From positions 96,984 through 160,983 of IMG/VR virus record IMGVR_UViG_3300042542_003555: DNA of 64,000 nt; one strand, 5' to 3'. Of this stretch, positions 56,513 to 64,000 are shown one piece after another (the stretch's first letter is position 1; every line of letters starts with the position of its first letter). The notes under the pieces are model-generated. The model worked only from the letters and a program-made list of their open reading frames with translations. It did not search any database and was not told the DNA's origin. The translations under genes were made by a program, and so were the position numbers. Source of the DNA: a virus.

Positions 56513-57298
56513 ATGGATCCATTTACACTATTTGCTTTAGCTAATGGTGCAGTACAAGCGGTTAAAAAAGGCTGTGAACTATATAAGGAAATAGCAAGCG
56601 CCACCAATGATGTTAAAGGCGTCCTGAACGATCTTGAGGAACAATTTAATTCTCGTCATAAAGATAAGCCTCCTACTGTTGCTGAGAAAAATCAGTATAT
56701 AACAGAAAAAAACCGCATAATTGAATTAAGCAAACAACAGCCTAATGATGTCTATACGCAGATAGGGGAAGAACTTGGCGTATATTTTGAAAATTATGCA
56801 AAGTGTTCTGCCATCTTTGAGGAAGAAGCAAGACATGACCATGAAGTTTACACAGGAGAAACTAGTCTAGGTAAAAGAGCTTTACAACGGGTTCTTATGG
56901 AAAGCAGATTAAGTGCCATGGAAGCAGAACTTCGTGAGCTTATGGTTTACAACTGTCCTTCGGAATTAGGTGATTTATACACCCGTGTCTATGGTATGAT
57001 GGAGAGGATGAAAAAACAACAGGCTGTAGCATGGACTAAGAAAAGAGAACAAGACAGAAAAGCAGCTAATGTAAAAAGACGTAGGATAGAAAAAATAAGA
57101 TGTGAGGCTTGGAAATATGGGTTGAGTGTTTTTATTATAATCTATTTAACCTGGCTAATATGGGCAGTGGTACAAATAAGAATAGAAGTCTATCCTGAAC
57201 TTGGTCGTTGTTTGATACCAAAAGGTAGTGTAGTATATAATTGGTACAATAACTTAAAATGGATAGATTGTGAGTTTAAACCTAAAGAGGAAAATTAA
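56513..57298 (+). CDS. Helical protein with C-terminal TM segment
   Basis: MDPFTLFALA N-terminus; GGAG RBS; one TM. Confidence 0.7.
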   Translation: MDPFTLFALANGAVQAVKKGCELYKEIASATNDVKGVLNDLEEQFNSRHKDKPPTVAEKNQYITEKNRIIELSKQQPNDVYTQIGEELGVYFENYAKCSAIFEEEARHDHEVYTGETSLGKRALQRVLMESRLSAMEAELRELMVYNCPSELGDLYTRVYGMMERMKKQQAVAWTKKREQDRKAANVKRRRIEKIRCEAWKYGLSVFIIIYLTWLIWAVVQIRIEVYPELGRCLIPKGSVVYNWYNNLKWIDCEFKPKEEN

Positions 57299-57589
57299 AT
57301 GAAGAAGATTTTACTTATCGCTCTAATGCTCGTTTCTAGTTTTACATATTCAGAAGAAAGACAAAAGCCAGTTGCTTGTTATCAACTATCTGAGATGTTG
57401 AATAACCTGAAAACAAATCATGGAGAAAAACTTGATTTTGTTGTTACGAATCAAATGTACAGAAGTTTTATTACCAATATTGCTATGTACAGAAATGAAC
57501 AAACTGGTTCATGGACAATGATAGAGTATGGAGAAAATTTTCAAGGTGAAGGTTGTATTATAGGATCAGGAAAAGACACTACATCATAA
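57299..57589 (+). CDS. Secreted small protein
   Basis: Signal peptide, 2 Cys, GAGG RBS. Confidence 0.65.
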   Translation: MKKILLIALMLVSSFTYSEERQKPVACYQLSEMLNNLKTNHGEKLDFVVTNQMYRSFITNIAMYRNEQTGSWTMIEYGENFQGEGCIIGSGKDTTS

Positions 57590-57590
57590 T

Positions 57591-57664
57591 TGGTTGCGGG
57601 CCCAAGATTCGAACAAGGAACTGAGGATTATGAGTCCTCTGTGATACCGTTTCACCAACCCGCC
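57591..57664 (-). tRNA. tRNA-Met(CAT), initiator-like (G1-A72 mismatch)
   Basis: GAGGA-CT-CAT-AA-TCCTC; encoded CCA. Confidence 0.8.
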
Positions 57665-57674
57665 ATATATTTAG

Positions 57675-57757
57675 TGGTGCGAGTAGACGGATTTGAACCG
57701 TCACGCCGAAGCGGGAGATTTTAAGTCTCCTGTGTATACCAATTTCACCATACTCGC
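57675..57757 (-). tRNA. tRNA-Leu(TAA)
   Basis: GGAGA-CT-TAA-AA-TCTCC; long variable arm; CCA. Confidence 0.9.
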
Positions 57758-57764
57758 ATTATTT

Positions 57765-57841
57765 TGGTGCCCCAGAGGAGAGTCGAACTCCTAAAATTTG
57801 GCTTCTAAGACCAACACGTATACCAGTTCCGTCACCGGGGC
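57765..57841 (-). tRNA. tRNA-Leu(TAG), short variable loop
   Basis: TTGGT-CT-TAG-AA-GCCAA; CCA. Confidence 0.85.
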
Positions 57842-58005
57842 ATAAATACTTTTATGAACTACGACTACTACGAACGAACTTTTGGCCGTCATGCCTCTTA
57901 TACTAGTGATACAAAAGGAAAAAATTTCATTCCTATGTATAACGAAATACCTAAAGAACACTATGAGTTTGTGCCAATGAGATGGCCAACTTATGGTGAA
58001 ACTTT

Positions 58006-58081
58006 TGGTGCACCCTCTAAGAATCGAACTTAGTTCATCGGTTCTTCAAACCGCTGCTATGACCACATCAGCTAAAGGTGC
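58006..58081 (-). tRNA. tRNA-Phe(GAA)
   Basis: CGGT-TT-GAA-GA-ACCG; CCA. Confidence 0.85.
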
Positions 58082-58082
58082 T

Positions 58083-58157
58083 TGGTGCATCGTGATGGAT
58101 TCGAACCAACGACAACCTGCTTGTAAGGCAGGGACTCTACCACTGAGCTAACGATGC
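58083..58157 (-). tRNA. tRNA-Val(TAC)
   Basis: CCTGC-CT-TAC-AA-GCAGG; CCA. Confidence 0.9.
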
Positions 58158-58158
58158 T

Positions 58159-58404
58159 TTAATCAAATATTCCAATAATTTCATCGACATTTATTTGATA
58201 CAAATTATCCATTAATTTAGTTGCTTTATTCCAATTAATTAAAAGAATATTGTTAACTTCAACATCAGTAACTTCTGGTCCAATTGCAATAACTCTTGCT
58301 TTATCTGCCTCATCATTACTTTTAAGAATAATACCAGATGATGTGGTCAATTCTTTTTCAAGTTTTTCTACTATAACATTATTTCTAAGAGGTGTCAAGT
58401 TCAT
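58159..58404 (-). CDS. groES: Co-chaperonin GroES
   Basis: LTPLRNNVIV, TTSSGIIL, VIAIGP. Confidence 0.85.
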   Translation of the reverse strand: MNLTPLRNNVIVEKLEKELTTSSGIILKSNDEADKARVIAIGPEVTDVEVNNILLINWNKATKLMDNLYQINVDEIIGIFD

Positions 58405-58422
58405 TTTAATATTCCTTTTAAT

Positions 58423-58893
58423 TTAAGCCGCCAATACTTCTTTCAATCTATCTGCTGCATAAGAAGCCGCAAATGCTCTTGGCTTTACCATAGGTATCAC
58501 ATTACATGTACCACGAATATAACCAACTGCTTGTTGAATGACACAAGATGATCCATGCATTTCATTAGGATTAATATCTAAGTGTACTTCAACATAACGA
58601 TTTTCTAATACATCAGCAAGACTTTGAAACAGTTCTGATACTTTATATACTTCATTCATCAAACGCATAGAAGGACGATCCTTACGTTGATCATAATCTC
58701 TTTCTCTTGTTACTTCACCAAAAATTTTACAACCATGGCGACCATCTATATGTACAACAATTGCTGTTGTGTAATCTGCATACCAAACACCATTCATATT
58801 AAATCTTTCGGAGTCTGCACCTAGATAGATTTTTGTTTCTGGTGACTGAGCAAGAATATACTCTTTTACTTCCTCTAGATTTAATTTTTTCAT
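58423..58893 (-). CDS. RNase H-like YkuK/DUF458 family protein
   Basis: IYLGADS, RLMNEV, EVHLDIN, KPRAFAASYAAD. Confidence 0.8.
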   Translation of the reverse strand: MKKLNLEEVKEYILAQSPETKIYLGADSERFNMNGVWYADYTTAIVVHIDGRHGCKIFGEVTRERDYDQRKDRPSMRLMNEVYKVSELFQSLADVLENRYVEVHLDINPNEMHGSSCVIQQAVGYIRGTCNVIPMVKPRAFAASYAADRLKEVLAA

Positions 58894-58911
58894 TTTGTTC
58901 CTCTATGTTGT

Positions 58912-58985
58912 TGGCTCCGGTGGAGGGAATCGAACCCCCACTAACGGTTTTGGAGACCGCCGCACTGCCATTATACTACACCGGA
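58912..58985 (-). tRNA. tRNA-Trp(CCA)
   Basis: GCGGT-CT-CCA-AA-ACCGT; CCA. Confidence 0.9.
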
Positions 58986-58986
58986 A

Positions 58987-59253
58987 TCATTTTTTATCTA
59001 ATGTATTAATTTCATTAGTAATGTAATCACCAGATTTATCACTAATTCTATTCATTTCTTTTAGTGCATCTAACACACAATCTTCTGTACTTAGGATATC
59101 TTGAAAATCTGAAGAACTTTTTTTAATGTTGCACTTACATTTTTCACATTTACATTCTTTTTCTTTTTTAAAGATTTTGTCCCAGTTGTCATTATATGTT
59201 TTTTGATCCACACTGAATGGTCTGGGATTACTTCCTTTGCCACCATCAGACAT
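58987..59253 (-). CDS. Hypothetical protein (GGKGSxPRP...YxDNWDKIF motif)
   Basis: AGGAG RBS; motif common in small phage proteins. Confidence 0.65.
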   Translation of the reverse strand: MSDGGKGSNPRPFSVDQKTYNDNWDKIFKKEKECKCEKCKCNIKKSSSDFQDILSTEDCVLDALKEMNRISDKSGDYITNEINTLDKK

Positions 59254-59273
59254 ATTTAACTCCTATTAAAAAT

Positions 59274-59347
59274 TGGTCCTCTCTGATGGTAACGATCCAA
59301 CGTCTACCGCTTATCAAGCGGGTGCTCTACCTTTGAGCTAAGAGAGG
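59274..59347 (-). tRNA. tRNA-Ile(GAT)
   Basis: CCGC-TT-GAT-AA-GCGG; atypical T-loop; CCA. Confidence 0.85.
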
Positions 59348-59349
59348 AA

Positions 59350-59425
59350 TGGCCGGTCCTGAAGGAATCGAACCTCCACCTGTAGGTCCGTAGCCTACCG
59401 TAATCATCCATTTTACTAAGGACCG
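59350..59425 (-). tRNA. tRNA-Arg(ACG)
   Basis: GTAGG-CT-ACG-GA-CCTAC; CCA. Confidence 0.9.
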
Positions 59426-59430
59426 ATAAT

Positions 59431-59589
59431 AAATTTATAGCCGGTGTGTACACATTGAGGCATCACCCTCTCCCGACACTCCGTTCACTAAGCACAGCCG
59501 TTCACTAATTCCTGATTGATGGTCAGTTTTCGTTAATACTAAGCCATGTAGTCATCCTTCCCACTGGACTCTGCTCCTGCTATAAATTT
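59431..59589 (-). ncRNA. Stem-enclosed structured RNA of unknown family
   Basis: 11-bp terminal inverted repeat AAATTTATAGC/GCTATAAATTT between two tRNAs; no ORF of 60 aa or more. Confidence 0.6.
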
Positions 59590-59664
59590 TGGTGGTAATG
59601 GAGAGATTCGAACTCCCAACACACACCGTATGAAGGTGCTGCACTACCATTGTGCTACATTACC
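59590..59664 (-). tRNA. tRNA-Met(CAT), elongator (Ile2 not excluded)
   Basis: GCACC-TT-CAT-AC-GGTGT; CCA. Confidence 0.85.
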
Positions 59665-59668
59665 TAAT

Positions 59669-59745
59669 TGGTCTGAGTAGAGAGGATCGAACTCCCGACC
59701 TCCTGCTCCCAAAGCAGGCGCACTACCAGGCTGTGCTATACTCAG
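59669..59745 (-). tRNA. tRNA-Pro(TGG)
   Basis: CCTGC-TT-TGG-GA-GCAGG; CCA. Confidence 0.9.
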
Positions 59746-59752
59746 ATAAAAC

Positions 59753-59826
59753 TGGAGCGGGATATCAGAATCGAACTGATAACAGGAGCTTGGAAGGCTC
59801 ACGTTTTACCATTAAACTAATCCCGC
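59753..59826 (-). tRNA. tRNA-Gly(TCC)
   Basis: GAGC-CT-TCC-AA-GCTC; U73; CCA. Confidence 0.9.
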
Positions 59827-59829
59827 ATT

Positions 59830-59903
59830 TGGTGCCGCTTGATGGAATCGAACCAACGATTGATGCTTACAAGGCAACTGTTATGCCATTTAACTAAAGC
59901 GGC
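59830..59903 (-). tRNA. tRNA-Thr(TGT)
   Basis: TGC-CT-TGT-AA-GCA; CCA. Confidence 0.85.
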
Positions 59904-60643
59904 TATAATGCTTCAATAATTTTTTTACCTACTCGTTGTACATCTCTGGTATTTCTTTCACCTAAGATGACTATTGTATATTTCTCGCCATTTTTTGTCA
60001 AGAGCATTGCCAGACATTTGCCGGCAGCATTAGTGAAGCCAGTTTTTGATATCTCAATTTCTTTATATTCTTTTAATAAGTTATAATTTGTATTTTGAAC
60101 TACCAAATTACGTTTTACTTTTCTTCTTGTATATTGTGTTACATGCATTTGTTCTATTGCTGCAAGATTTTTCATTGTGTCAAAATTATATGCATAATTT
60201 AATAATATTGATAAATCTCTTGCGTTGCTTATATTATTTCTTCCTATACCAGAAGGATCTTCATATTGCGTATGAATCATTCCTAACTGTTCTGCTTTGT
60301 GATTCATGTTAGCAATAAAACTACTTCTGCCGCCTGAGTGTGCTTTTGCTAAAGCTTCGGCGGCTTGATTATCACTTTTAACTAATAATAATTTTAACAA
60401 TTCTTCTCTACTTAACTCTTTTCTACCCAAAAAACCTCTGTAGGAAACTTTTTCGTTTAATGATGCACCACTTTCAATAACAACAATTGCAGTCATTAGT
60501 TTTGTAACACTTGCAATTGGTCTTACTCTTTCAGATGCATATTCATGTACTACTTCATCTTTTGTTACATTATAAACATAAGTTGTTGCAGATGATACAT
60601 GTGCCGACAATAATAAAGATAAAATGAGAATTAATTTTTTCAT
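59903..60643 (-). CDS. D-alanyl-D-alanine carboxypeptidase/endopeptidase (peptidase S11, PBP5/PBP7-like)
   Basis: Signal peptide; SVTK (SxxK), SDN (SxN) and KTG motifs. Confidence 0.88.
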   Translation of the reverse strand: MKKLILILSLLLSAHVSSATTYVYNVTKDEVVHEYASERVRPIASVTKLMTAIVVIESGASLNEKVSYRGFLGRKELSREELLKLLLVKSDNQAAEALAKAHSGGRSSFIANMNHKAEQLGMIHTQYEDPSGIGRNNISNARDLSILLNYAYNFDTMKNLAAIEQMHVTQYTRRKVKRNLVVQNTNYNLLKEYKEIEISKTGFTNAAGKCLAMLLTKNGEKYTIVILGERNTRDVQRVGKKIIEAL

Positions 60644-60668
60644 CTTTGTTCCTGTGTGTGTAAAGGTT

Positions 60669-60676
60669 TATTTATG
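60669..60676 (-). promoter_or_regulatory. Late-promoter-like CATAAATA overlapping the tRNA-Ala CCA end
   Basis: One mismatch to TATAAATA, about 25 nt before the S11 peptidase ATG. Confidence 0.45.
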
Positions 60677-60748
60677 GTGGAGGATAACAGAATCGAACTG
60701 TTAATCTCGGCTTGCAAAGCCGATGTTATCCCATTTAACTAATCCCCC
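60675..60748 (-). tRNA. tRNA-Ala(TGC)
   Basis: TCGGC-TT-TGC-AA-GCCGA; G3-U70; CCA. Confidence 0.9.
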
Positions 60749-60766
60749 GACCGCCTCACACGCTAC

Positions 60767-60852
60767 TGGTGGGTGCTCTCCGATTCGAACAGAGAAGGCC
60801 TAGACAACGGATTTACAGTCCGCCCCCGATACCATTACGGGACTAAACACCC
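60767..60852 (-). tRNA. tRNA-Tyr(GTA)
   Basis: GCGGA-CT-GTA-AA-TCCGT; long variable arm; CCA. Confidence 0.9.
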
Positions 60853-60859
60853 TAAAACT

Positions 60860-60934
60860 TGGCTCCGGAGGTTGGGATCGAACCAACGACATATGGATTA
60901 ACAGTCCACCGTTCTACCACTGAACTACACCGGA
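60860..60934 (-). tRNA. tRNA-Asn(GTT)
   Basis: GTGGA-CT-GTT-AA-TCCAT; CCA. Confidence 0.9.
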
Positions 60935-60941
60935 ATAAATT

Positions 60942-61018
60942 TGGCGACACTTAGGGAATTCGAATCCCTGACCTCTGCCGTGACAGGGCAGCGTTCTAAC
61001 CAACTGAACTAAAGTGCC
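60942..61018 (-). tRNA. tRNA-Asp(GTC)
   Basis: CTGCC-CT-GTC-AC-GGCAG; CCA. Confidence 0.9.
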
Positions 61019-61023
61019 ATAAT

Positions 61024-61156
61024 AATATGGTGATTGGACGCCACGCCAACTTTCTGCTTACCACAAGGATGCCTTTCGGCTTCGCATTACTGGGTTGTTT
61101 CAGCGCACAGCCACTATACAGTGACCAAATCCCTTACCTTGCTTCTTCACCATATT
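61024..61156 (-). ncRNA. Stem-enclosed structured RNA of unknown family
   Basis: 10-bp terminal IR AATATGGTGA/TCACCATATT; internal GCC-GAAA-GGC hairpin. Confidence 0.55.
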
Positions 61157-61228
61157 GAAACACACTGGGACTCCATTGGAGTGAATTATCTTCGGAACAA
61201 CCCTTAGAACCAATGTGTTTCAATATGG
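61150..61228 (-). ncRNA. tRNA-Lys 3'-trailer stem cassette (three-way junction)
   Basis: 19-bp IR (one G-U on the minus strand) starting at the tRNA CCA; two internal hairpins. Confidence 0.6.
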
Positions 61229-61300
61229 TAGGTGCGGAGAATTTCGAAATCTCGACTTACCGGTTAAAAGCCGGTTACTCTGCCTCTGAGTTACGCACCC
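61226..61300 (-). tRNA. tRNA-Lys(TTT)
   Basis: ACCGG-CT-TTT-AA-CCGGT; CCA. Confidence 0.9.
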
Positions 61301-61329
61301 ATTATCTTATCACTCTTGTCACTATCCAT
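61291..61329 (-). CDS. 12-aa mini-ORF MDSDKSDKIMGA ending inside tRNA-Lys
   Basis: AAGGAG RBS 7 nt before ATG. Confidence 0.4.
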   Translation of the reverse strand: MDSDKSDKIMGA

Positions 61330-61355
61330 AACAGGACTCCTTTTTAAAAAATTAA

Positions 61356-61573
61356 TCTTGCTTAGGCTACTTGTTTTCCACGCAAGCCCCTATGCTGAGT
61401 TGTTACCCTGTCCACATTATGTTGAGCATTTGTCACGCATAATGAACGCTGCTATGTTGTTTGAAACACCGGAAACGCCGATTTCGCAGAGTTTATGTTT
61501 CGCTGACGGTGCCATAGCCACCGGGACTCTCTCGTTTACCACACGCTACTTTCAGGAAAGTAGTAACCGGAAC
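61356..61573 (-). ncRNA. About 220-nt multi-stem structured RNA (possibly manA-motif-like)
   Basis: Hairpins CTACTTT/AAAGTAG, CGGTG/CACCG, CATTATG/CATAATG, TAGG..CTTG/CAAG..CCTA. Confidence 0.55.
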
Positions 61574-61625
61574 TTATATGGTATAATCTACCAAGCATAT
61601 TGTGCTTGTATCACAGTTAGTTATA

Positions 61626-61774
61626 CCATATTAAAGTATTATCTGCTCAATTTAGGAAATTGGTGCGCTTGCCATCCATAGCCGAGAGCGGTTATATTAG
61701 GATCAGTCGCCGGCTGCTTTGACCCGAATAGTGTATGCGTCCATACACGATACCCTGATAATACTTTAATATGG
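61626..61774 (-). ncRNA. tRNA-Glu 3'-trailer stem cassette with possible pseudoknot
   Basis: 18-bp perfect IR starting at the tRNA CCA; internal GTGTATG/CATACAC and GGGTCA/TGATCC stems; loop AGCCG complementary to downstream CGGCT. Confidence 0.6.
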
Positions 61775-61846
61775 CACACCCAACCGGATTCGAACCGGTG
61801 TTACTGCCGTGAAAGGGCAATGTCCTGACCACTAGACGATGGGTGC
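61772..61846 (-). tRNA. tRNA-Glu(TTC)
   Basis: TTGCC-CT-TTC-AC-GGCAG; CCA. Confidence 0.9.
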
Positions 61847-61890
61847 ATCGTATTGCTAAATTGTTAAAGAAACTCAACTACAGAAACATC

Positions 61891-61919
61891 ATTGTACACT
61901 GGCTCAATCGTTTTGTCAA
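61891..61919 (-). promoter_or_regulatory. Internal sigma70 promoter of the tRNA array
   Basis: TTGACA(61919-61914)-N17-TACAAT(61896-61891). Confidence 0.8.
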
Positions 61920-61958
61920 GCGTGTTGTACAAATACAACATGTTGCTACTTTTGCAAC

Positions 61959-62036
61959 TGGAGCAACGGGTCAGATTCGAACTGACGGTTTTAAGGTTTT
62001 GCAGACCTTTGCATTGGGCCACTCTGCCACCGTTGC
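61959..62036 (-). tRNA. tRNA-Cys(GCA)
   Basis: AAGGT-CT-GCA-AA-ACCTT; U73; CCA. Confidence 0.9.
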
Positions 62037-62042
62037 GTCAAC

Positions 62043-62132
62043 TGGTCCTTCGGTGTGGAGTCGAACCACATCCTGGGTCTTATCTGGACAAATGCTTATA
62101 AGGCATCCTGCTCTACCGTGAGCTACCGAAGG
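62043..62132 (-). tRNA. tRNA-Ile(TAT) with an abnormally long variable region
   Basis: GATGC-CT-TAT-AA-GCATT; acceptor CCTTCGG/CCGAAGG, A73, CCA; about 20-nt variable region. Confidence 0.75.
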
Positions 62133-62191
62133 TCATTCTTAAATATAAAATAAAGAAGCAAAAAAATGATAACTACAACTATCGCAGCCAT
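62123..62191 (-). CDS. 22-aa hydrophobic mini-ORF MAAIVVVIIFLLLYFIFKNDLR ending inside tRNA-Ile(TAT)
   Basis: AGGAAAGGAG RBS; TM-like peptide. An alternative ATG 4 nt upstream gives an 18-aa ORF in another frame. Confidence 0.4.
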   Translation of the reverse strand: MAAIVVVIIFLLLYFIFKNDLR

Positions 62192-62223
62192 TCATAATTA
62201 CTCCTTTCCTTTTGTTCGTTAAT

Positions 62224-62316
62224 TGGCGGAGATAGTTGGATTCGAACCAACGGATCATTTTTAAGATGATCGACGGTTTAGCAAACCGCTGCCTTAAGCC
62301 TCTCAGCCATATCTCC
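62224..62316 (-). tRNA. tRNA-Ser(GCT)
   Basis: GCGGT-TT-GCT-AA-ACCGT; long variable arm; G73; CCA. Confidence 0.9.
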
Positions 62317-62421
62317 TACTATTACTGCAAACTTATAAAACGAAAACATCACAGTAGCCATAAAAAAGCCCATTGCTATCCAATAACCTAATATTGTTAA
62401 TACAATTATTGCTATAGACAT
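62278..62421 (-). CDS. 47-aa membrane peptide ending inside tRNA-Ser(GCT)
   Basis: AGGAGA RBS; MSIAIIVLTILGYWIAMGFF... Confidence 0.45.
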   Translation of the reverse strand: MSIAIIVLTILGYWIAMGFFMATVMFSFYKFAVIVGDMAERLKAAVC

Positions 62422-62435
62422 TTGTTCTCCTATAT

Positions 62436-62520
62436 CCATAGTAAAACACATTCTTGGATTCTCGTAACAGTAATCCATGACCCCGGGCGTCATTATGTGT
62501 TTGAATGTGTTTTACTATGG
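62436..62520 (-). ncRNA. tRNA-Ser(TGA) 3'-trailer stem cassette (three-way junction)
   Basis: 18-bp perfect IR starting at the tRNA CCA; internal ATGAC/GTCAT and GGATT/AATCC hairpins. Confidence 0.6.
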
Positions 62521-62605
62521 CGGAAGCGGTGAGATTCGAACTCACGGACCTTTTACAGTCGGCAGTTTTCAAGACTGCTGATTTAAACCACTCATCCACA
62601 CTTCC
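62518..62605 (-). tRNA. tRNA-Ser(TGA)
   Basis: GCAGT-CT-TGA-AA-ACTGC; long variable arm; CCA. Confidence 0.9.
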
Positions 62606-62614
62606 ATAAATCTT

Positions 62615-62689
62615 TGGGGTGTCTAACGAGTACCGACCTCGTACCTACTCTTTCACAGAGAGTAATGCTACCACTACACCATAGACACC
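62615..62689 (-). tRNA. tRNA-His(GTG)
   Basis: ACTCT-CT-GTG-AA-AGAGT; G-1:C73; atypical T-loop; CCA. Confidence 0.88.
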
Positions 62690-62691
62690 AC

Positions 62692-62765
62692 TGGCAGGGA
62701 CATTAGGATTCGAACCTAAACTAACAGAGTCAAAGTCTGCGGTGCTGCCGTTACACTATGTCCCA
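62692..62765 (-). tRNA. tRNA-Gln(TTG)
   Basis: GCAGA-CT-TTG-AC-TCTGT; CCA; first tRNA after the attenuator. Confidence 0.9.
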
Positions 62766-62769
62766 ATAT

Positions 62770-62803
62770 AAACAAAAAACCCCTAGTTTTTACGCTAGGG
62801 GTC
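62770..62803 (-). terminator. Intrinsic terminator of the putative attenuator
   Basis: GACCCCTAG-CGTAAAAA-CTAGGGGTT-TTTTGTTT. Confidence 0.85.
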
Positions 62804-62843
62804 TTGTGTTTAGATTAAGATTTCTAGTCTATACACGGACCCC
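62798..62843 (-). promoter_or_regulatory. Antiterminator hairpin of the putative attenuator
   Basis: GGGGTC-C-GTGT-A-TAGA (end of leader ORF) pairs with TCTA-A-ACAC-AA-GACCCC, sequestering the terminator 5' arm. Confidence 0.75.
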
Positions 62844-62924
62844 AAAGGCGAACCATGACGCATCACCACAATTAATTGTGTGATACTCTGGCTGACTTAT
62901 AATGGGTTTGCGTATGGACAACAT
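62829..62924 (-). CDS. Attenuator leader peptide containing all 20 amino acids (MLSIRKPIISQPEYHTINCGDASWFAFGVRV)
   Basis: Lies between promoter and terminator; AGAAAG SD-like element. The 63-aa version in the ORF track starts upstream of the promoter and is unlikely. Confidence 0.75.
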   Translation of the reverse strand: MLSIRKPIISQPEYHTINCGDASWFAFGVRV

Positions 62925-62957
62925 TGTAATCTTTCTAACTAAATTTAATATGTTAAC

Positions 62958-62986
62958 AGTATATAGTAAACTTTTTGGTTTGTCAA
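62958..62986 (-). promoter_or_regulatory. Sigma70 promoter of the tRNA operon leader
   Basis: AACCC-TTGACA(62986-62981)-N17-TATACT(62963-62958), same consensus as the early promoters. Confidence 0.85.
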
Positions 62987-63004
62987 GGGTTATTTTGATG
63001 TTTT

Positions 63005-63514
63005 TTATGAAACTTTCCATTTTATTGGAATTGAAACTATTGGATCATCAGGATTCTTAAATTCATCAAAGATATTCCAAAGATGATGCATCACTACAAA
63101 TTTATATAATAATCCTGGTTCTCTACCGTATGCATCAATCTCCCAAGGATGATCCCAATAGTCTACCTTACTTTGATCTATCTTTTTATTTTTCCATCTA
63201 GATAATACATCGTCGGTTTCGTTCATGATATATTGTTTAACATGTACCATCTCATGTGCAAGTGTTTCCAATATTAATCTTGCCCCAATTCCCGAATGTA
63301 TCTCTATTAGAAATTCTCTAGGTTGTTTTCCTTTGTTATATCCAGAAATACTGGCATAACCATATTCTTTGATTTTCTTTGTAAAGACAATTTTAGTCTT
63401 ACAGTTATTGCTAATTCTTTTATTTGGGATTAATTCTTGGGCAAAAAAGGAGGCTGCCTCAGACACAAAAGGCTTAAAGTCTTTATCTGGACAATTGACA
63501 ATCTTGAACTGCAT
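63005..63514 (-). CDS. Zincin-like metallopeptidase domain protein
   Basis: TLAHEMVHVKQY...PWEIDAY. Confidence 0.75.
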   Translation of the reverse strand: MQFKIVNCPDKDFKPFVSEAASFFAQELIPNKRISNNCKTKIVFTKKIKEYGYASISGYNKGKQPREFLIEIHSGIGARLILETLAHEMVHVKQYIMNETDDVLSRWKNKKIDQSKVDYWDHPWEIDAYGREPGLLYKFVVMHHLWNIFDEFKNPDDPIVSIPIKWKVS

Positions 63515-63543
63515 CGGTGTTCCTTTGTGTACCTATGCATCAT

Positions 63544-63551
63544 TATTTATA
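63544..63551 (-). promoter_or_regulatory. T4-type late promoter TATAAATA
   Basis: Exact match 30 nt upstream of the 63514 ATG. Confidence 0.6.
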
Positions 63552-63552
63552 T

Positions 63553-63972
63553 TTAACCTCTCTCCGACCCATCTGACGGCTCTGAAGTCTTGAAAATCAT
63601 CACTCCACATTCAGTTAAGAACTTCAATCCATCGCTGGAACGATAATCTTTCTCATAGTATACTGTTTTGATACCAGCGGTAAATATCTGTTTGGCACAG
63701 TCAATACAAGGAGCATGAGTTAAAAACATAGTAGCATCTTTGCCAGATTCTGTGCTTTTGGCCAACTTTGCAATAGCATTGGCTTCCGCATGGATTACTT
63801 CTGGTTTTGTTTTTAGTCCACCATCTTCATTTGTATCTTCACAGATATTACTCCAACCAGATGGCATTCCATTATAACCAATAGAAACAATTCTATCTTC
63901 TTTAACTATAATAGCACCAACTTGTAAACGAACTGCTGATGATAATTCAGCAAATCGTTTTGCTACATCCAT
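63553..63972 (-). CDS. cd: dCMP deaminase (frame stays open to the window edge, so the start may be further upstream)
   Basis: VGAII, GYNG, HAEANAI, PCIDC. Confidence 0.9.
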   Translation of the reverse strand: MDVAKRFAELSSAVRLQVGAIIVKEDRIVSIGYNGMPSGWSNICEDTNEDGGLKTKPEVIHAEANAIAKLAKSTESGKDATMFLTHAPCIDCAKQIFTAGIKTVYYEKDYRSSDGLKFLTECGVMIFKTSEPSDGSERG

Positions 63973-64000
63973 GTATGCTCTAATATATTTAAAGAAGATA

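What the first reader, a model, noticed from the sequence alone, without database searches (positions are those of the whole stretch)
61150..62520. Three tRNAs whose CCA end is the first 3 bp of an 18-19-bp inverted repeat enclosing a small structured RNA
Seen: Ser(UGA) CCATAGTAAAACACATTC...GAATGTGTTTTACTATGG (62520-62436); Glu CCATATTAAAGTATTATC...GATAATACTTTAATATGG (61774-61626); Lys CCATATTGAAACACATTGG...CCAGTGTGTTTCAATATGG (61228-61150). In each precursor the CCA would pair with a terminal UGG. The stems resemble each other (CCATA-T/G-T-A/G-AA..) but the cargo differs: two three-way junctions and one possible pseudoknot. Inference: a reusable cassette. It could be an RNase III-like processing stem releasing small RNAs, a gate that blocks tRNA 3' maturation or shields CCA from CCA-targeting toxins, or a tRNA-targeting miniature mobile element.
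Basis: partly seen in the sequence, partly recalled or inferred. Interest (0 to 1): 0.72.

Follow-up and report, generated by a model that had tools for sequence, protein, structure and literature searches.

The report
CCA-anchored RNA clamp cassettes beside phage tRNAs
In this uncultured lake phage, three tRNA genes are followed by a long, almost perfect RNA stem that begins with the tRNA's own CCA end and encloses a small RNA. The same swappable stem-plus-insert design recurs behind tRNAs in well over a hundred related phage contigs and matches phage T5's stable RNAIII, so it is probably a cutting signal for maturing the tRNA transcript, though this is untested.

Summary
tRNA-Ser(UGA), tRNA-Glu and tRNA-Lys each end in a CCA that forms the first 3 bp of an 18-19-bp inverted repeat, at 62436-62520, 61626-61774 and 61150-61228 on the minus strand. 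The arm motif occurs nowhere else in the 161-kb genome.

- **Frequency in relatives:** 49 of 544 tRNA CCA ends carry such a stem, against 0 of 4619 control CCA sites. A 16-mer of the 3' arm hits at least 120 viral contigs.
- **Selection on the stem:** it is 96% paired, 7 of 17 pairs show compensatory changes, and the wobble pairs lie in the tRNA-sense orientation. Stem length stays at 16-23 bp even when the sequence differs completely.
- **Variable inserts:** they range from 3 nt (bare hairpins in the closest relatives) to about 190 nt.
- **Recent gain:** the Ser cassette is an 83-nt insertion absent from four relatives.
- **One insert is conserved:** the Glu insert is a structured RNA found elsewhere inside a different 19-bp stem.
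- **Known counterpart:** phage T5's annotated stable RNAIII has the same CCA-to-UGG clamp.

Best reading (about 0.5): these are double-strand-specific (RNase III-type) processing clamps that punctuate the tRNA transcript, release stalk-closed small RNAs, and are shuffled by recombination. Rival readings are a selfish palindromic element and a CCA gate. This scan has met the family before on other DNA. I rate it a new variant of a known but obscure kind.

The parts
62518..62605 (-). tRNA-Ser(UGA). Its encoded CCA (62518-62520) forms the first 3 bp of the Ser cassette stem.
   Evidence: ARAGORN; Rfam tRNA model, 56.2 bits; 3' end sequence.
62436..62520 (-). Ser cassette, 85 nt. The 5' arm is 62503-62520, the 49-nt insert with two hairpins is 62454-62502, and the 3' arm is 62436-62453, ending in TGG.
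   Evidence: 18/18 inverted repeat. Three-way-junction fold, -35.2 kcal/mol, z -8.1. It is an 83-nt insertion relative to L001, L006, L011 and L014.
62278..62421 (-). Conserved 47-codon ORF for a small hydrophobic protein. Its ribosome-binding site lies directly after the Ser cassette. In relatives it lies directly after the CCA.
   Evidence: ORF list; alignment of filled and empty sites.
61772..61846 (-). tRNA-Glu(UUC), the first gene after the internal promoter. Its CCA (61772-61774) starts the Glu cassette stem.
61626..61774 (-). Glu cassette, 149 nt. The 5' arm is 61757-61774, the 113-nt structured insert is 61644-61756, and the 3' arm is 61626-61643.
   Evidence: 18/18 inverted repeat. 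Fold -49.5 kcal/mol, z -5.0. The insert has homologues in L327 and L328 inside a different 19-bp stem, with compensatory changes. The closest relatives L001 and L002 have a bare 41-nt hairpin at this site.
61574..61628 (-). Window-specific second hairpin. It re-uses the TGG of the Glu cassette and ends in CCA, so its polarity is reversed. It is absent from relatives.
   Evidence: Comparison with L001, L006, L011 and L014. Fold -12.9 kcal/mol, z -2.5.
61226..61300 (-). tRNA-Lys(UUU). Its CCA (61226-61228) starts the Lys cassette stem.
61150..61228 (-). Lys cassette, 79 nt. The 5' arm is 61210-61228, the 41-nt insert is 61169-61209, and the 3' arm is 61150-61168.
   Evidence: 19-bp stem with one U.G pair. 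Fold -35.2 kcal/mol, z -7.1. In relatives this site holds either a bare 39-nt hairpin or 81-85-nt cassettes with other arms.
61017..61149 (-). About 118-nt spacer RNA ending in CCA, then a 14-nt mini-palindrome (61017-61030) whose last GG is nt 1-2 of tRNA-Asp. The palindrome looks like a remnant of the Lys-Asp hairpin seen in relatives.
   Evidence: Sequence. The fold is not better than shuffles, z +0.4. L124 shows the analogous arrangement of a cassette, a CCA-ending RNA and another cassette.
62958..62986 (-). Sigma-70-like promoter (11 of 12 matches) driving the unit Gln-His-Ser(UGA)-cassette-ORF-Ser(GCU)-Ile-Cys.
61891..61919 (-). Sigma-70-like promoter (11 of 12 matches) driving the unit Glu-cassette-(about 326 nt of RNA)-Lys-cassette-Asp-Asn...
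   Evidence: No terminator-like site lies between it and the cassettes.

Best explanation
The three elements belong to a large family of 'clamp cassettes' found in the tRNA operons of uncultured, mostly freshwater, T4-like phages.

**Proposed mechanism.** In the polycistronic precursor, the 3' CCA of a tRNA (or of another CCA-ending RNA) pairs with a downstream UGG. The pairing continues into a 16-23-bp, nearly perfect RNA helix that closes off whatever lies between the arms. I propose that this helix is a substrate for a double-strand-specific endonuclease, most likely the host's RNase III. Staggered cleavage inside the stem would have three effects:
- It would detach the tRNA with a short 3' trailer, which exonucleases would trim back to CCA.
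- It would create a new 5' end for the downstream RNA or mRNA.
- It would release the insert as a small RNA protected by a residual stalk.

Because the arms are repeated at many CCA ends, recombination moves, swaps, empties and fills the cassettes.

**Shown:** the anatomy, the specificity for CCA ends, selection for pairing, the constant stem length, gain and loss, cargo swapping, and the T5 counterpart.

**Inferred:** that the helix forms in RNA, that RNase III cuts it, and that the inserts accumulate as stable RNAs.
For: - **Anatomy and significance:**
- **Specificity for CCA ends:** 49 of 544 tRNA CCA ends against 0 of 4619 control CCA sites. All 41 paired motifs in L001-L080 sit at tRNA 3' ends. 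Of 108 hits to the 3'-arm 16-mer in 80 further contigs, 97 have a CCA-anchored partner and 58 sit at called tRNA ends.
- **Selection for pairing:** the stem is 96.3% paired. Seven of 17 pairs change on both sides. The covariation score is 0.275 against 0.141 for shuffles (0 of 500 reach it) and 0.03-0.14 for slid controls.
- **Wobble orientation:** there are 36 tRNA-sense G.U pairs against 14 A.C pairs, and the asymmetric pairs always lie in the same orientation.
- **Length rather than sequence is kept:** at least three further unrelated arm families (in L017/L041, L020 and L001 His) still run from CCA to TGG over about 20-22 bp. The same Glu insert sits in an 18-bp stem here and a 19-bp stem of different outer sequence in L327, with 6 compensatory pairs.
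- **Co-transcription:** the cassettes are internal to promoter-defined units.
- **The stem alone can suffice:** L001, L006 and L011 conserve bare 39-41-nt hairpins whose terminal GG is nt 1-2 of the next tRNA.
- **Precedent:** T5's annotated 'stable RNA with unknown functions' RNAIII lies in a 19-bp stem running from the CCA of RNAI to a UGG overlapping tRNA-His. Its annotated ends fall inside that stem with a 2-nt 3' overhang, the geometry RNase III leaves.
- **Literature:** RNase III is listed among the E. coli endonucleases acting on tRNA 3' trailers (PMC10879173).
Against: - There are no RNA-end data for this phage or its relatives.
- The host, and so its RNase III, is unknown. The phage itself encodes no RNase III.
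- The arm sequence, not only the pairing, is strongly conserved. Persistent non-Watson-Crick positions include an A.C in 11 of 19 cassettes and a U.G in 16 of 19. This points either to common descent of copies or to a sequence-specific partner, rather than to a generic dsRNA nuclease.
- The A.C position would be a wobble pair only on the antisense strand.
- The T5 overhang rests on annotation coordinates, and its 3' cut could equally be RNase P acting at tRNA-His.
- Covariation between inverted-repeat arms could also arise from DNA-level hairpin repair.
Confidence: 0.5

Rival explanations
1. This is a selfish palindromic DNA element, MITE-like or REP-like. It inserts at the junction right after a CCA and persists because it is harmless there. 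Any RNA hairpin is a by-product.
For: - The Ser site is filled in the window and empty in four relatives, as a clean 83-nt indel.
- The same arms, with the same asymmetric mismatches, recur at many different tRNAs and genomes, which implies copying from a common source.
- Cargo is swapped between identical arms.
- A TA dinucleotide lies at both junctions of the Ser insertion.
Against: - The TA cannot be confirmed as a target duplication, because relatives have GA or AA at that position.
- The phage has no Y1 transposase, and no long autonomous version was seen.
- Copies occur only at CCA ends within tRNA arrays, always in the tRNA-sense orientation, and never elsewhere in a 161-kb genome.
- Compensatory changes and sense-strand wobble pairs indicate selection on a folded strand.
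- Unrelated arm sequences keep the same length and the same CCA-to-TGG design.
Confidence: 0.2
2. The stem is a CCA mask or gate. By pairing CCA with UGG it keeps the tRNA 3' end unavailable until the clamp is removed. The CCA would be hidden from RNase P RNA, which pairs with RCCA through a GGU motif. It would also be hidden from aminoacylation and from 3'-end-directed nucleases or toxins. The result would be an imposed order or timing of maturation.
For: - CCA-to-UGG pairing is invariant in all 31 distinct cassettes collected and in T5 RNAIII. Note that the scan behind the 31 cassettes required these three pairs. An unconstrained scan found a Gln variant (L025-L029) whose stem starts one base into the CCA.
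- The RCCA-RNase P RNA interaction, and the dependence of some T4 precursors on the 3' CCA, are established (PMC11143913).
- A pseudo-tRNA-linked copy in L155 keeps the pairing through a U.G pair after its CCA decayed.
Against: - Only 3 of about 24 tRNAs in this phage carry the stem, and which tRNAs carry it varies among close relatives. Any gating is therefore dispensable.
- The same insert works in a stem without a CCA.
- Pairing of positions 72 and 73 beyond the CCA is only 50%.
Confidence: 0.12
3. The inserts are the point. The stems are only folding insulators and exonuclease-proof stalks for functional small RNAs, for example decoys or tRNA-elbow mimics, that ride in the tRNA operon. That a stem starts at the CCA is simply economical packing.
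For: - The Glu insert is conserved, with a compensatory change, in L327 and L328.
- The large Glu inserts form conserved families, L016 with L025 and L030 with L033.
- Some inserts carry a T-arm-like hairpin next to the 3' arm.
- T5 RNAIII is annotated as a stable RNA.
Against: - Bare hairpins with 3-7-nt loops are conserved at the Lys and Glu sites of the closest relatives.
- The Ser and Lys inserts have no exact 21-22-mer match in 2.9 million viral contigs. This is a weak test.
- Inserts between identical arms are unrelated.
Confidence: 0.13

Closest known systems
Phage T5 stable RNAIII, with RNAI, RNA1, RNA2H, RNAIV and RNA2 of the T5 tRNA region. GenBank AY692264 and NC_005859 annotate them as 'stable RNA with unknown functions'.
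   Same: - It lies inside a phage tRNA cluster on the tRNA strand.
- It is enclosed by a 19-bp stem that begins with the CCA of the preceding RNA and ends with a UGG overlapping the next tRNA.
- The insert is multibranched.
- Its function is unknown.
   Different: - The arm sequence is only loosely similar.
- T5 has a single instance of this design. Here it is a multi-copy, polymorphic family with interchangeable inserts.
- In the window, the 3' arms are not flush with the next tRNA.
RNase III processing stems: the stems flanking 16S and 23S rRNA, and the phage T7 early-region sites (from my own knowledge).
   Same: - Complementary flanks form a helix of about two turns, which encloses an RNA excised from a polycistronic transcript.
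- Occasional non-canonical pairs occur in the helix.
   Different: - Here the 5' strand of the helix is the functional 3' end of a tRNA.
- Cleavage has not been shown.
- The arm sequence is conserved as a repeat family.
Correia repeat-enclosed elements of Neisseria and other bacterial MITEs (PMC2649163, PMC10969869).
   Same: - They are small elements bounded by inverted repeats.
- They show presence/absence polymorphism.
- When transcribed, they fold and are bound or cut by RNase III.
   Different: - Correia elements are scattered genome-wide with a TA target duplication.
- These cassettes sit only at CCA ends in tRNA arrays, in one orientation, with no clear duplication.
Theta (HDV-like) ribozymes next to tRNAs of gut phages (PMC10879173).
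   Same: Both are structured RNAs associated with phage tRNA genes and proposed to handle the 3' trailer.
   Different: - Theta ribozymes have a conserved catalytic core and accompany mostly CCA-less tRNAs.
- Here the inserts are unrelated to one another, Rfam finds no ribozyme, and every tRNA encodes CCA.
Phage T4 species 1 and species 2 RNAs (rnaC, rnaD).
   Same: They are small stable RNAs of unknown function co-transcribed with phage tRNAs. rnaD ends in CCA.
   Different: They lack a long closing stem that uses an upstream CCA. Their folds are tRNA-like rather than clamped.
PeSL promoter/stem-loop cassettes of T4-like phages (PMC4122927).
   Same: They are repeated intergenic stem-loop motifs in T4-like genomes, thought to drive modular shuffling by recombination.
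   Different: PeSLs combine an early promoter with a terminator. These cassettes contain no strong promoter match and are tied to CCA ends.

Membership tests
T5 RNAIII-type clamped stable RNA of phage tRNA clusters | Lies within a tRNA gene cluster, on the tRNA strand, inside a transcription unit. | tested here: met
T5 RNAIII-type clamped stable RNA of phage tRNA clusters | Closing stem of about 17-19 bp whose first 3 bp are the CCA of the upstream RNA. | tested here: met
   Window stems are 18, 18 and 19 bp. The T5 stem is 19 bp.
T5 RNAIII-type clamped stable RNA of phage tRNA clusters | 3' arm ends in UGG overlapping the first bases of the next tRNA. | tested here: not met
   In the window, the 3' arms are followed by an ORF (Ser), about 326 nt (Glu) or 131 nt (Lys). 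The feature is met in relatives: L001, L006 and L011 Lys-Asp, L017 Glu-Lys and L020 Glu-Ser.
T5 RNAIII-type clamped stable RNA of phage tRNA clusters | The insert accumulates as a stable RNA in infected cells. | not testable with these tools
   No expression data are available.
RNase III substrate | Near-continuous double-stranded RNA of roughly two helical turns. | tested here: met
   Stems are 16-23 bp and 96% paired across 19 cassettes.
RNase III substrate | Staggered cleavage leaving 2-nt 3' overhangs, dependent on rnc. | not testable with these tools
   The only indirect evidence is that the annotated T5 RNAIII ends fit this geometry.
MITE / Correia-like transposable element | Terminal inverted repeats. 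| tested here: met
MITE / Correia-like transposable element | Target-site duplication at filled sites. | tested here: inconclusive
   TA lies at both junctions of the Ser insertion, but the empty sites read GA or AA.
MITE / Correia-like transposable element | Dispersed copies in varied genomic contexts and in both orientations. | tested here: not met
   Copies occur only at CCA ends of tRNA arrays and in the sense orientation.
REP / IS200-IS605-type (Y1 transposase-dependent) palindromic element | A cognate Y1 (HUH) transposase in the genome. | tested here: not met
   PF01797 is absent from the 96%-complete genome. A host-encoded enzyme cannot be excluded.
Self-cleaving ribozyme 3' of tRNA (theta/HDV-like, hammerhead, twister) | A conserved catalytic core recognised by Rfam models. 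| tested here: not met
   No ribozyme hit at E up to 1 over 57000-64000. The inserts are mutually unrelated.
PeSL cassette of T4-like phages | An early promoter fused to a terminator stem-loop. | tested here: not met
   No match of 11 of 12 or better falls inside a cassette, only weak 9-10/12 chance-level matches on the opposite strand. No T-run follows the stems.

The most novel reading that the evidence does not exclude
The clamp is a portable 'maturation socket'. It is a module that spreads specifically among CCA-ending RNA genes by a dedicated mechanism still to be found, with no transposase and no clear duplication. It brings its own double-strand cleavage signal. Phages could therefore plug arbitrary small RNAs, including tRNA-elbow mimics that might act as decoys for tRNA-directed defence nucleases, into their tRNA operons and have them matured and stabilised by host enzymes.
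Probability: 0.15. Interest if true: 0.85.

Novelty: new variant of a known kind. Interest (0 to 1): 0.6.

Why it matters
Phage tRNA arrays are increasingly viewed as tools for codon supply and counter-defence. How long arrays interrupted by ORFs and spacers are cut into working tRNAs is poorly understood.

A conserved helix that uses the tRNA's own CCA as one strand would be a simple, modular punctuation mark for these transcripts. It would also give a rationale for the 'stable RNAs of unknown function' that the T5 and T4 records annotate without any assigned role.

The family offers a natural library of many inserts in one standard frame. It includes empty frames and recent insertions, so stem function and insert function can be tested separately. 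The design could also be borrowed for expressing several tRNAs and small RNAs from one transcript.

Tried and rejected
- **Rfam.** A search at E up to 1 over 57000-64000 found only tRNAs and sub-threshold noise in the cassettes.
- **Cultured phages.** blastn of the array and of the Lys cassette against 50,697 phage records found only tRNA similarity or chance hits, so no cultured carrier is known.
- **T4 rnaC and rnaD as direct counterparts.** Rejected, because they have no CCA-anchored stem.
- **Phage-encoded RNase III.** Absent.
- **YkuK-like RNase H-fold gene in the array (58423-58893) as a dedicated nuclease.** It is present in only 3 of 5 related genomes and missing from a 100%-complete one that has cassettes. 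I dropped it as a required partner.
- **Y1 transposase.** Absent.
- **Bacterial genomes.** A scan with the 3'-arm 16-mer gave roughly chance-level single hits. The few double hits were in short freshwater MAG contigs that are probably phage DNA.
- **Inserts elsewhere.** Exact-word searches for the Ser and Lys inserts found nothing.
- **The about 118-nt spacer after the Lys cassette as a structured RNA.** Its fold is no better than shuffles.
- **Literature.** Searches for a published description of CCA-anchored inverted repeats in phage tRNA clusters found none. Much of the older T5 and T4 literature is outside the searchable library.
- **Work cut short.** The script machine was lost. A planned larger catalogue covering all 200+ loci, junction signatures and long versions with ORFs could not be made.
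Full report
**1. What the window is**

The window is the last 64 kb of a single-contig, 160,983-bp virus record with 36% G+C. CheckV estimates it as 96% complete.

ARAGORN finds 23 tRNA genes, all on the minus strand between 57591 and 62765. Every one of them encodes its CCA. Sigma-70-like promoters with 11 of 12 matches lie at 62986-62958, 61919-61891, 60001-59973 and 58398-58370 on the minus strand. All three elements under study are therefore internal to transcription units.

**2.

The inverted repeats are exactly as described:
- Ser: 62503-62520 with 62436-62453, 18/18.
- Glu: 61757-61774 with 61626-61643, 18/18.
- Lys: 61210-61228 with 61150-61168, 19 bp with one U.G pair.

The three RNAs fold with the stem closed. 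The z-scores are -8.1, -5.0 and -7.1, and no shuffle folds as well. The shared 10-nt start of the arms occurs only at these six positions in the whole genome. Rfam assigns nothing to the inserts.

**3. It is a large family specific to CCA ends**

I used the ORF just upstream of the array (63005-63514) to fetch 80 related loci from viral contigs.

- In these loci plus the window, 49 of 544 tRNA CCA ends carry a CCA-anchored stem scoring 28 or more. None of 4619 other CCA sites does.
- All 41 paired occurrences of the arm motif are at tRNA 3' ends.
- The carrier tRNAs are Glu (most often), Lys, Gln, Ala, Leu, Asn, Ser and His.

In the 80 loci I could analyse, 97 of 108 hits had a CCA-anchored partner arm, and 58 lay at called tRNA ends.

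Direct reading of L124 and L155 shows runs of three cassettes in tRNA-sense orientation. Some follow pseudo-tRNAs or non-tRNA RNAs of about 105-120 nt that still end in CCA. The window has the same arrangement after its Lys cassette, at 61017-61149. No record among 50,697 deposited phage genomes carries this arm type.

**4. The stem is under selection for pairing, and its length matters more than its sequence**

I aligned 19 distinct cassettes (A1) and counted pairs.

- The 17-bp core is 96.3% paired.
- Seven of 17 pairs change on both sides.
- The covariation score is 0.275. Column shuffles give 0.141 (0 of 500 reach the observed value) and slid controls give 0.03-0.14.

Three columns carry most of the non-Watson-Crick cells:
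- One column follows the series A-U, G.U, G-C.
- One is U.G in 16 of 19 cassettes.
- One is A.C in 11 of 19.

Over 31 distinct cassettes there are 501 Watson-Crick pairs, 36 sense-strand G.U pairs, 14 A.C pairs and 7 others. The asymmetric pairs never appear flipped. This fits a hairpin in the tRNA-sense transcript. The persistent asymmetries also show that the copies descend from a common source.

Other arm families have no sequence similarity beyond the CCA, yet they keep the CCA-to-TGG design and a length of about 20-22 bp. They occur at L017/L018 and L041/L042, at L020, and at L001 His.

The Glu insert of the window has homologues in L327 and L328. There it is closed by a 19-bp stem with a different outer sequence. 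That stem follows another cassette instead of a CCA and abuts tRNA-Cys. Six stem pairs and one internal hairpin pair differ by compensatory changes. A helix of constant length with free sequence is what a double-strand-specific enzyme would require.

**5. Cassettes are gained, lost, emptied and refilled**

- **Ser(UGA) site.** The window carries a clean 83-nt insertion relative to L001, L006, L011 and L014, in which the ribosome-binding site of a conserved small ORF follows the CCA directly. A TA lies at both junctions, but the empty sites read GA or AA. A target duplication can therefore be neither affirmed nor excluded.
- **Lys site.** L001, L006 and L011 have a bare 39-nt hairpin (18 bp, 3-nt loop, -16.8 kcal/mol) whose final GG is nt 1-2 of tRNA-Asp. 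L014 and L015 have 81-85-nt cassettes with other arms. The window has yet another arm variant, followed by about 131 extra nt of which the last 14 are a palindromic remnant.
- **Glu site.** L001 and L002 have a bare 41-nt hairpin with nearly the same arms as the window. L011, L014 and L015 share arms but hold unrelated inserts. The flanks are conserved throughout.
- **Inserts.** Some include a T-arm-like hairpin beside the 3' arm. The large Glu inserts fall into conserved sub-families. The Ser and Lys inserts of the window have no exact 21-22-mer anywhere in the viral collection.

**6. A known counterpart exists in T5**

Both T5 records annotate RNAI, RNAIII, RNA1, RNA2H, RNAIV and RNA2 in the tRNA region as stable RNAs of unknown function.

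RNAIII lies within a 19-bp stem. The stem's first three bases are the CCA that ends RNAI, and its last three are a UGG overlapping the start of tRNA-His. The fold is -42 kcal/mol with z -5.6. The annotated RNAIII termini fall inside this stem and leave a 2-nt 3' overhang. That is the geometry of RNase III products (my own knowledge). The 3' cut could equally be RNase P acting at tRNA-His.

T4's rnaC and rnaD do not have this design.

**7. Mechanism**

The most economical reading is that the clamps are RNase III-type processing sites. They would separate a tRNA from what follows it and release a stalk-protected small RNA. Recombination between the repeated arms would account for the shuffling.

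Nothing here shows cleavage. The host is unknown, and the phage has no RNase III of its own. The YkuK-like RNase H-fold gene inside the array is not consistently present in related genomes.

Three rivals remain:
- A purely selfish palindromic element. No Y1 transposase was found, and the copies have a strict context and orientation.
- A CCA mask that delays RNase P or other enzymes that read the 3' end. The RCCA-GGU pairing with RNase P RNA is documented in PMC11143913. Too few tRNAs carry the stem, and too variably, for this to be the main role.
- Stems as mere stalks for functional inserts. The conserved bare hairpins contradict this.

**8. Novelty**

I found no publication describing CCA-anchored clamp cassettes. 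The T5 RNAs are annotated, but as of unknown function. Theta ribozymes (PMC10879173), Correia elements (PMC2649163) and PeSLs (PMC4122927) share single aspects but fail the defining tests.

This scan has already met the family on other DNA (e1-5653403, e1-166674, e1-5739795, e1-5827571 and others). I rate it a new variant of a known but obscure kind, with interest 0.6.

**Limits**

The script machine was lost, so the analysis of the second locus set stayed partial. The covariation test used 19 cassettes only.

Noticed in passing
window 60771-60852 (-): Probable tRNA-Tyr(GUA) with a long variable arm, missed by ARAGORN in the window. Rfam's tRNA-Sec model scores 29.9 bits here. Relative L001 has a called tRNA-Tyr between Asn and Ala. 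The array would then hold 24 tRNAs.
   Followed up: partly
window 61301-61573 (-): About 270 nt of RNA between the Glu cassette and tRNA-Lys is conserved in L001, L006, L011 and L014. It ends in a ribosome-binding site and a 12-codon mini-ORF whose stop lies inside tRNA-Lys. Rfam has no match.
   Followed up: partly
window 59431-59589 (-): A 159-nt element starts right after the CCA of the second tRNA-Met and is closed by a 14-bp stem (93% complementary). The stem does not include the CCA. It is a different arm family with a similar design.
   Followed up: no
window 58423-58893 (-): A YkuK-type RNase H-like gene (PF04308, E 6e-17) sits inside the tRNA array. It is present in 3 of 5 related full-length phage genomes.
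   Followed up: partly
window 59903-60643 (-): A D-Ala-D-Ala carboxypeptidase (Peptidase_S11) gene with a signal-like N-terminus lies in the middle of the tRNA array. A strong promoter match (60001-59973) lies inside its 3' end.
   Followed up: no
window 62776-62805 (-): A terminator-like hairpin with a T-run lies directly upstream of tRNA-Gln and downstream of the 62986 promoter. It is the subject of another note of this scan, the leader-peptide attenuator.
   Followed up: no
L145 13185-13378 (-): A group I intron match (Rfam RF00028, 53.4 bits, above the gathering score) lies in the tRNA region of a related phage contig.
   Followed up: no
L095 13937-14332 (+): A related phage contig carrying cassettes also encodes a tmRNA, with a tag peptide ending in ALAA.
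   Followed up: no
L155 6040-6360 (+): Pseudo-tRNAs lie between cassettes: truncated cloverleaves, one with an Rfam tRNA score of 34.8 bits. Where the CCA has decayed to CUA, the clamp keeps pairing through a U.G pair.
   Followed up: partly
L014 4331-4409 (+); L155 5903-6001 (+): Cassette inserts contain a T-arm-like hairpin (the GGTTCGA-type loop) next to the 3' arm. They may be tRNA-elbow mimics or tRNA remnants.
   Followed up: no
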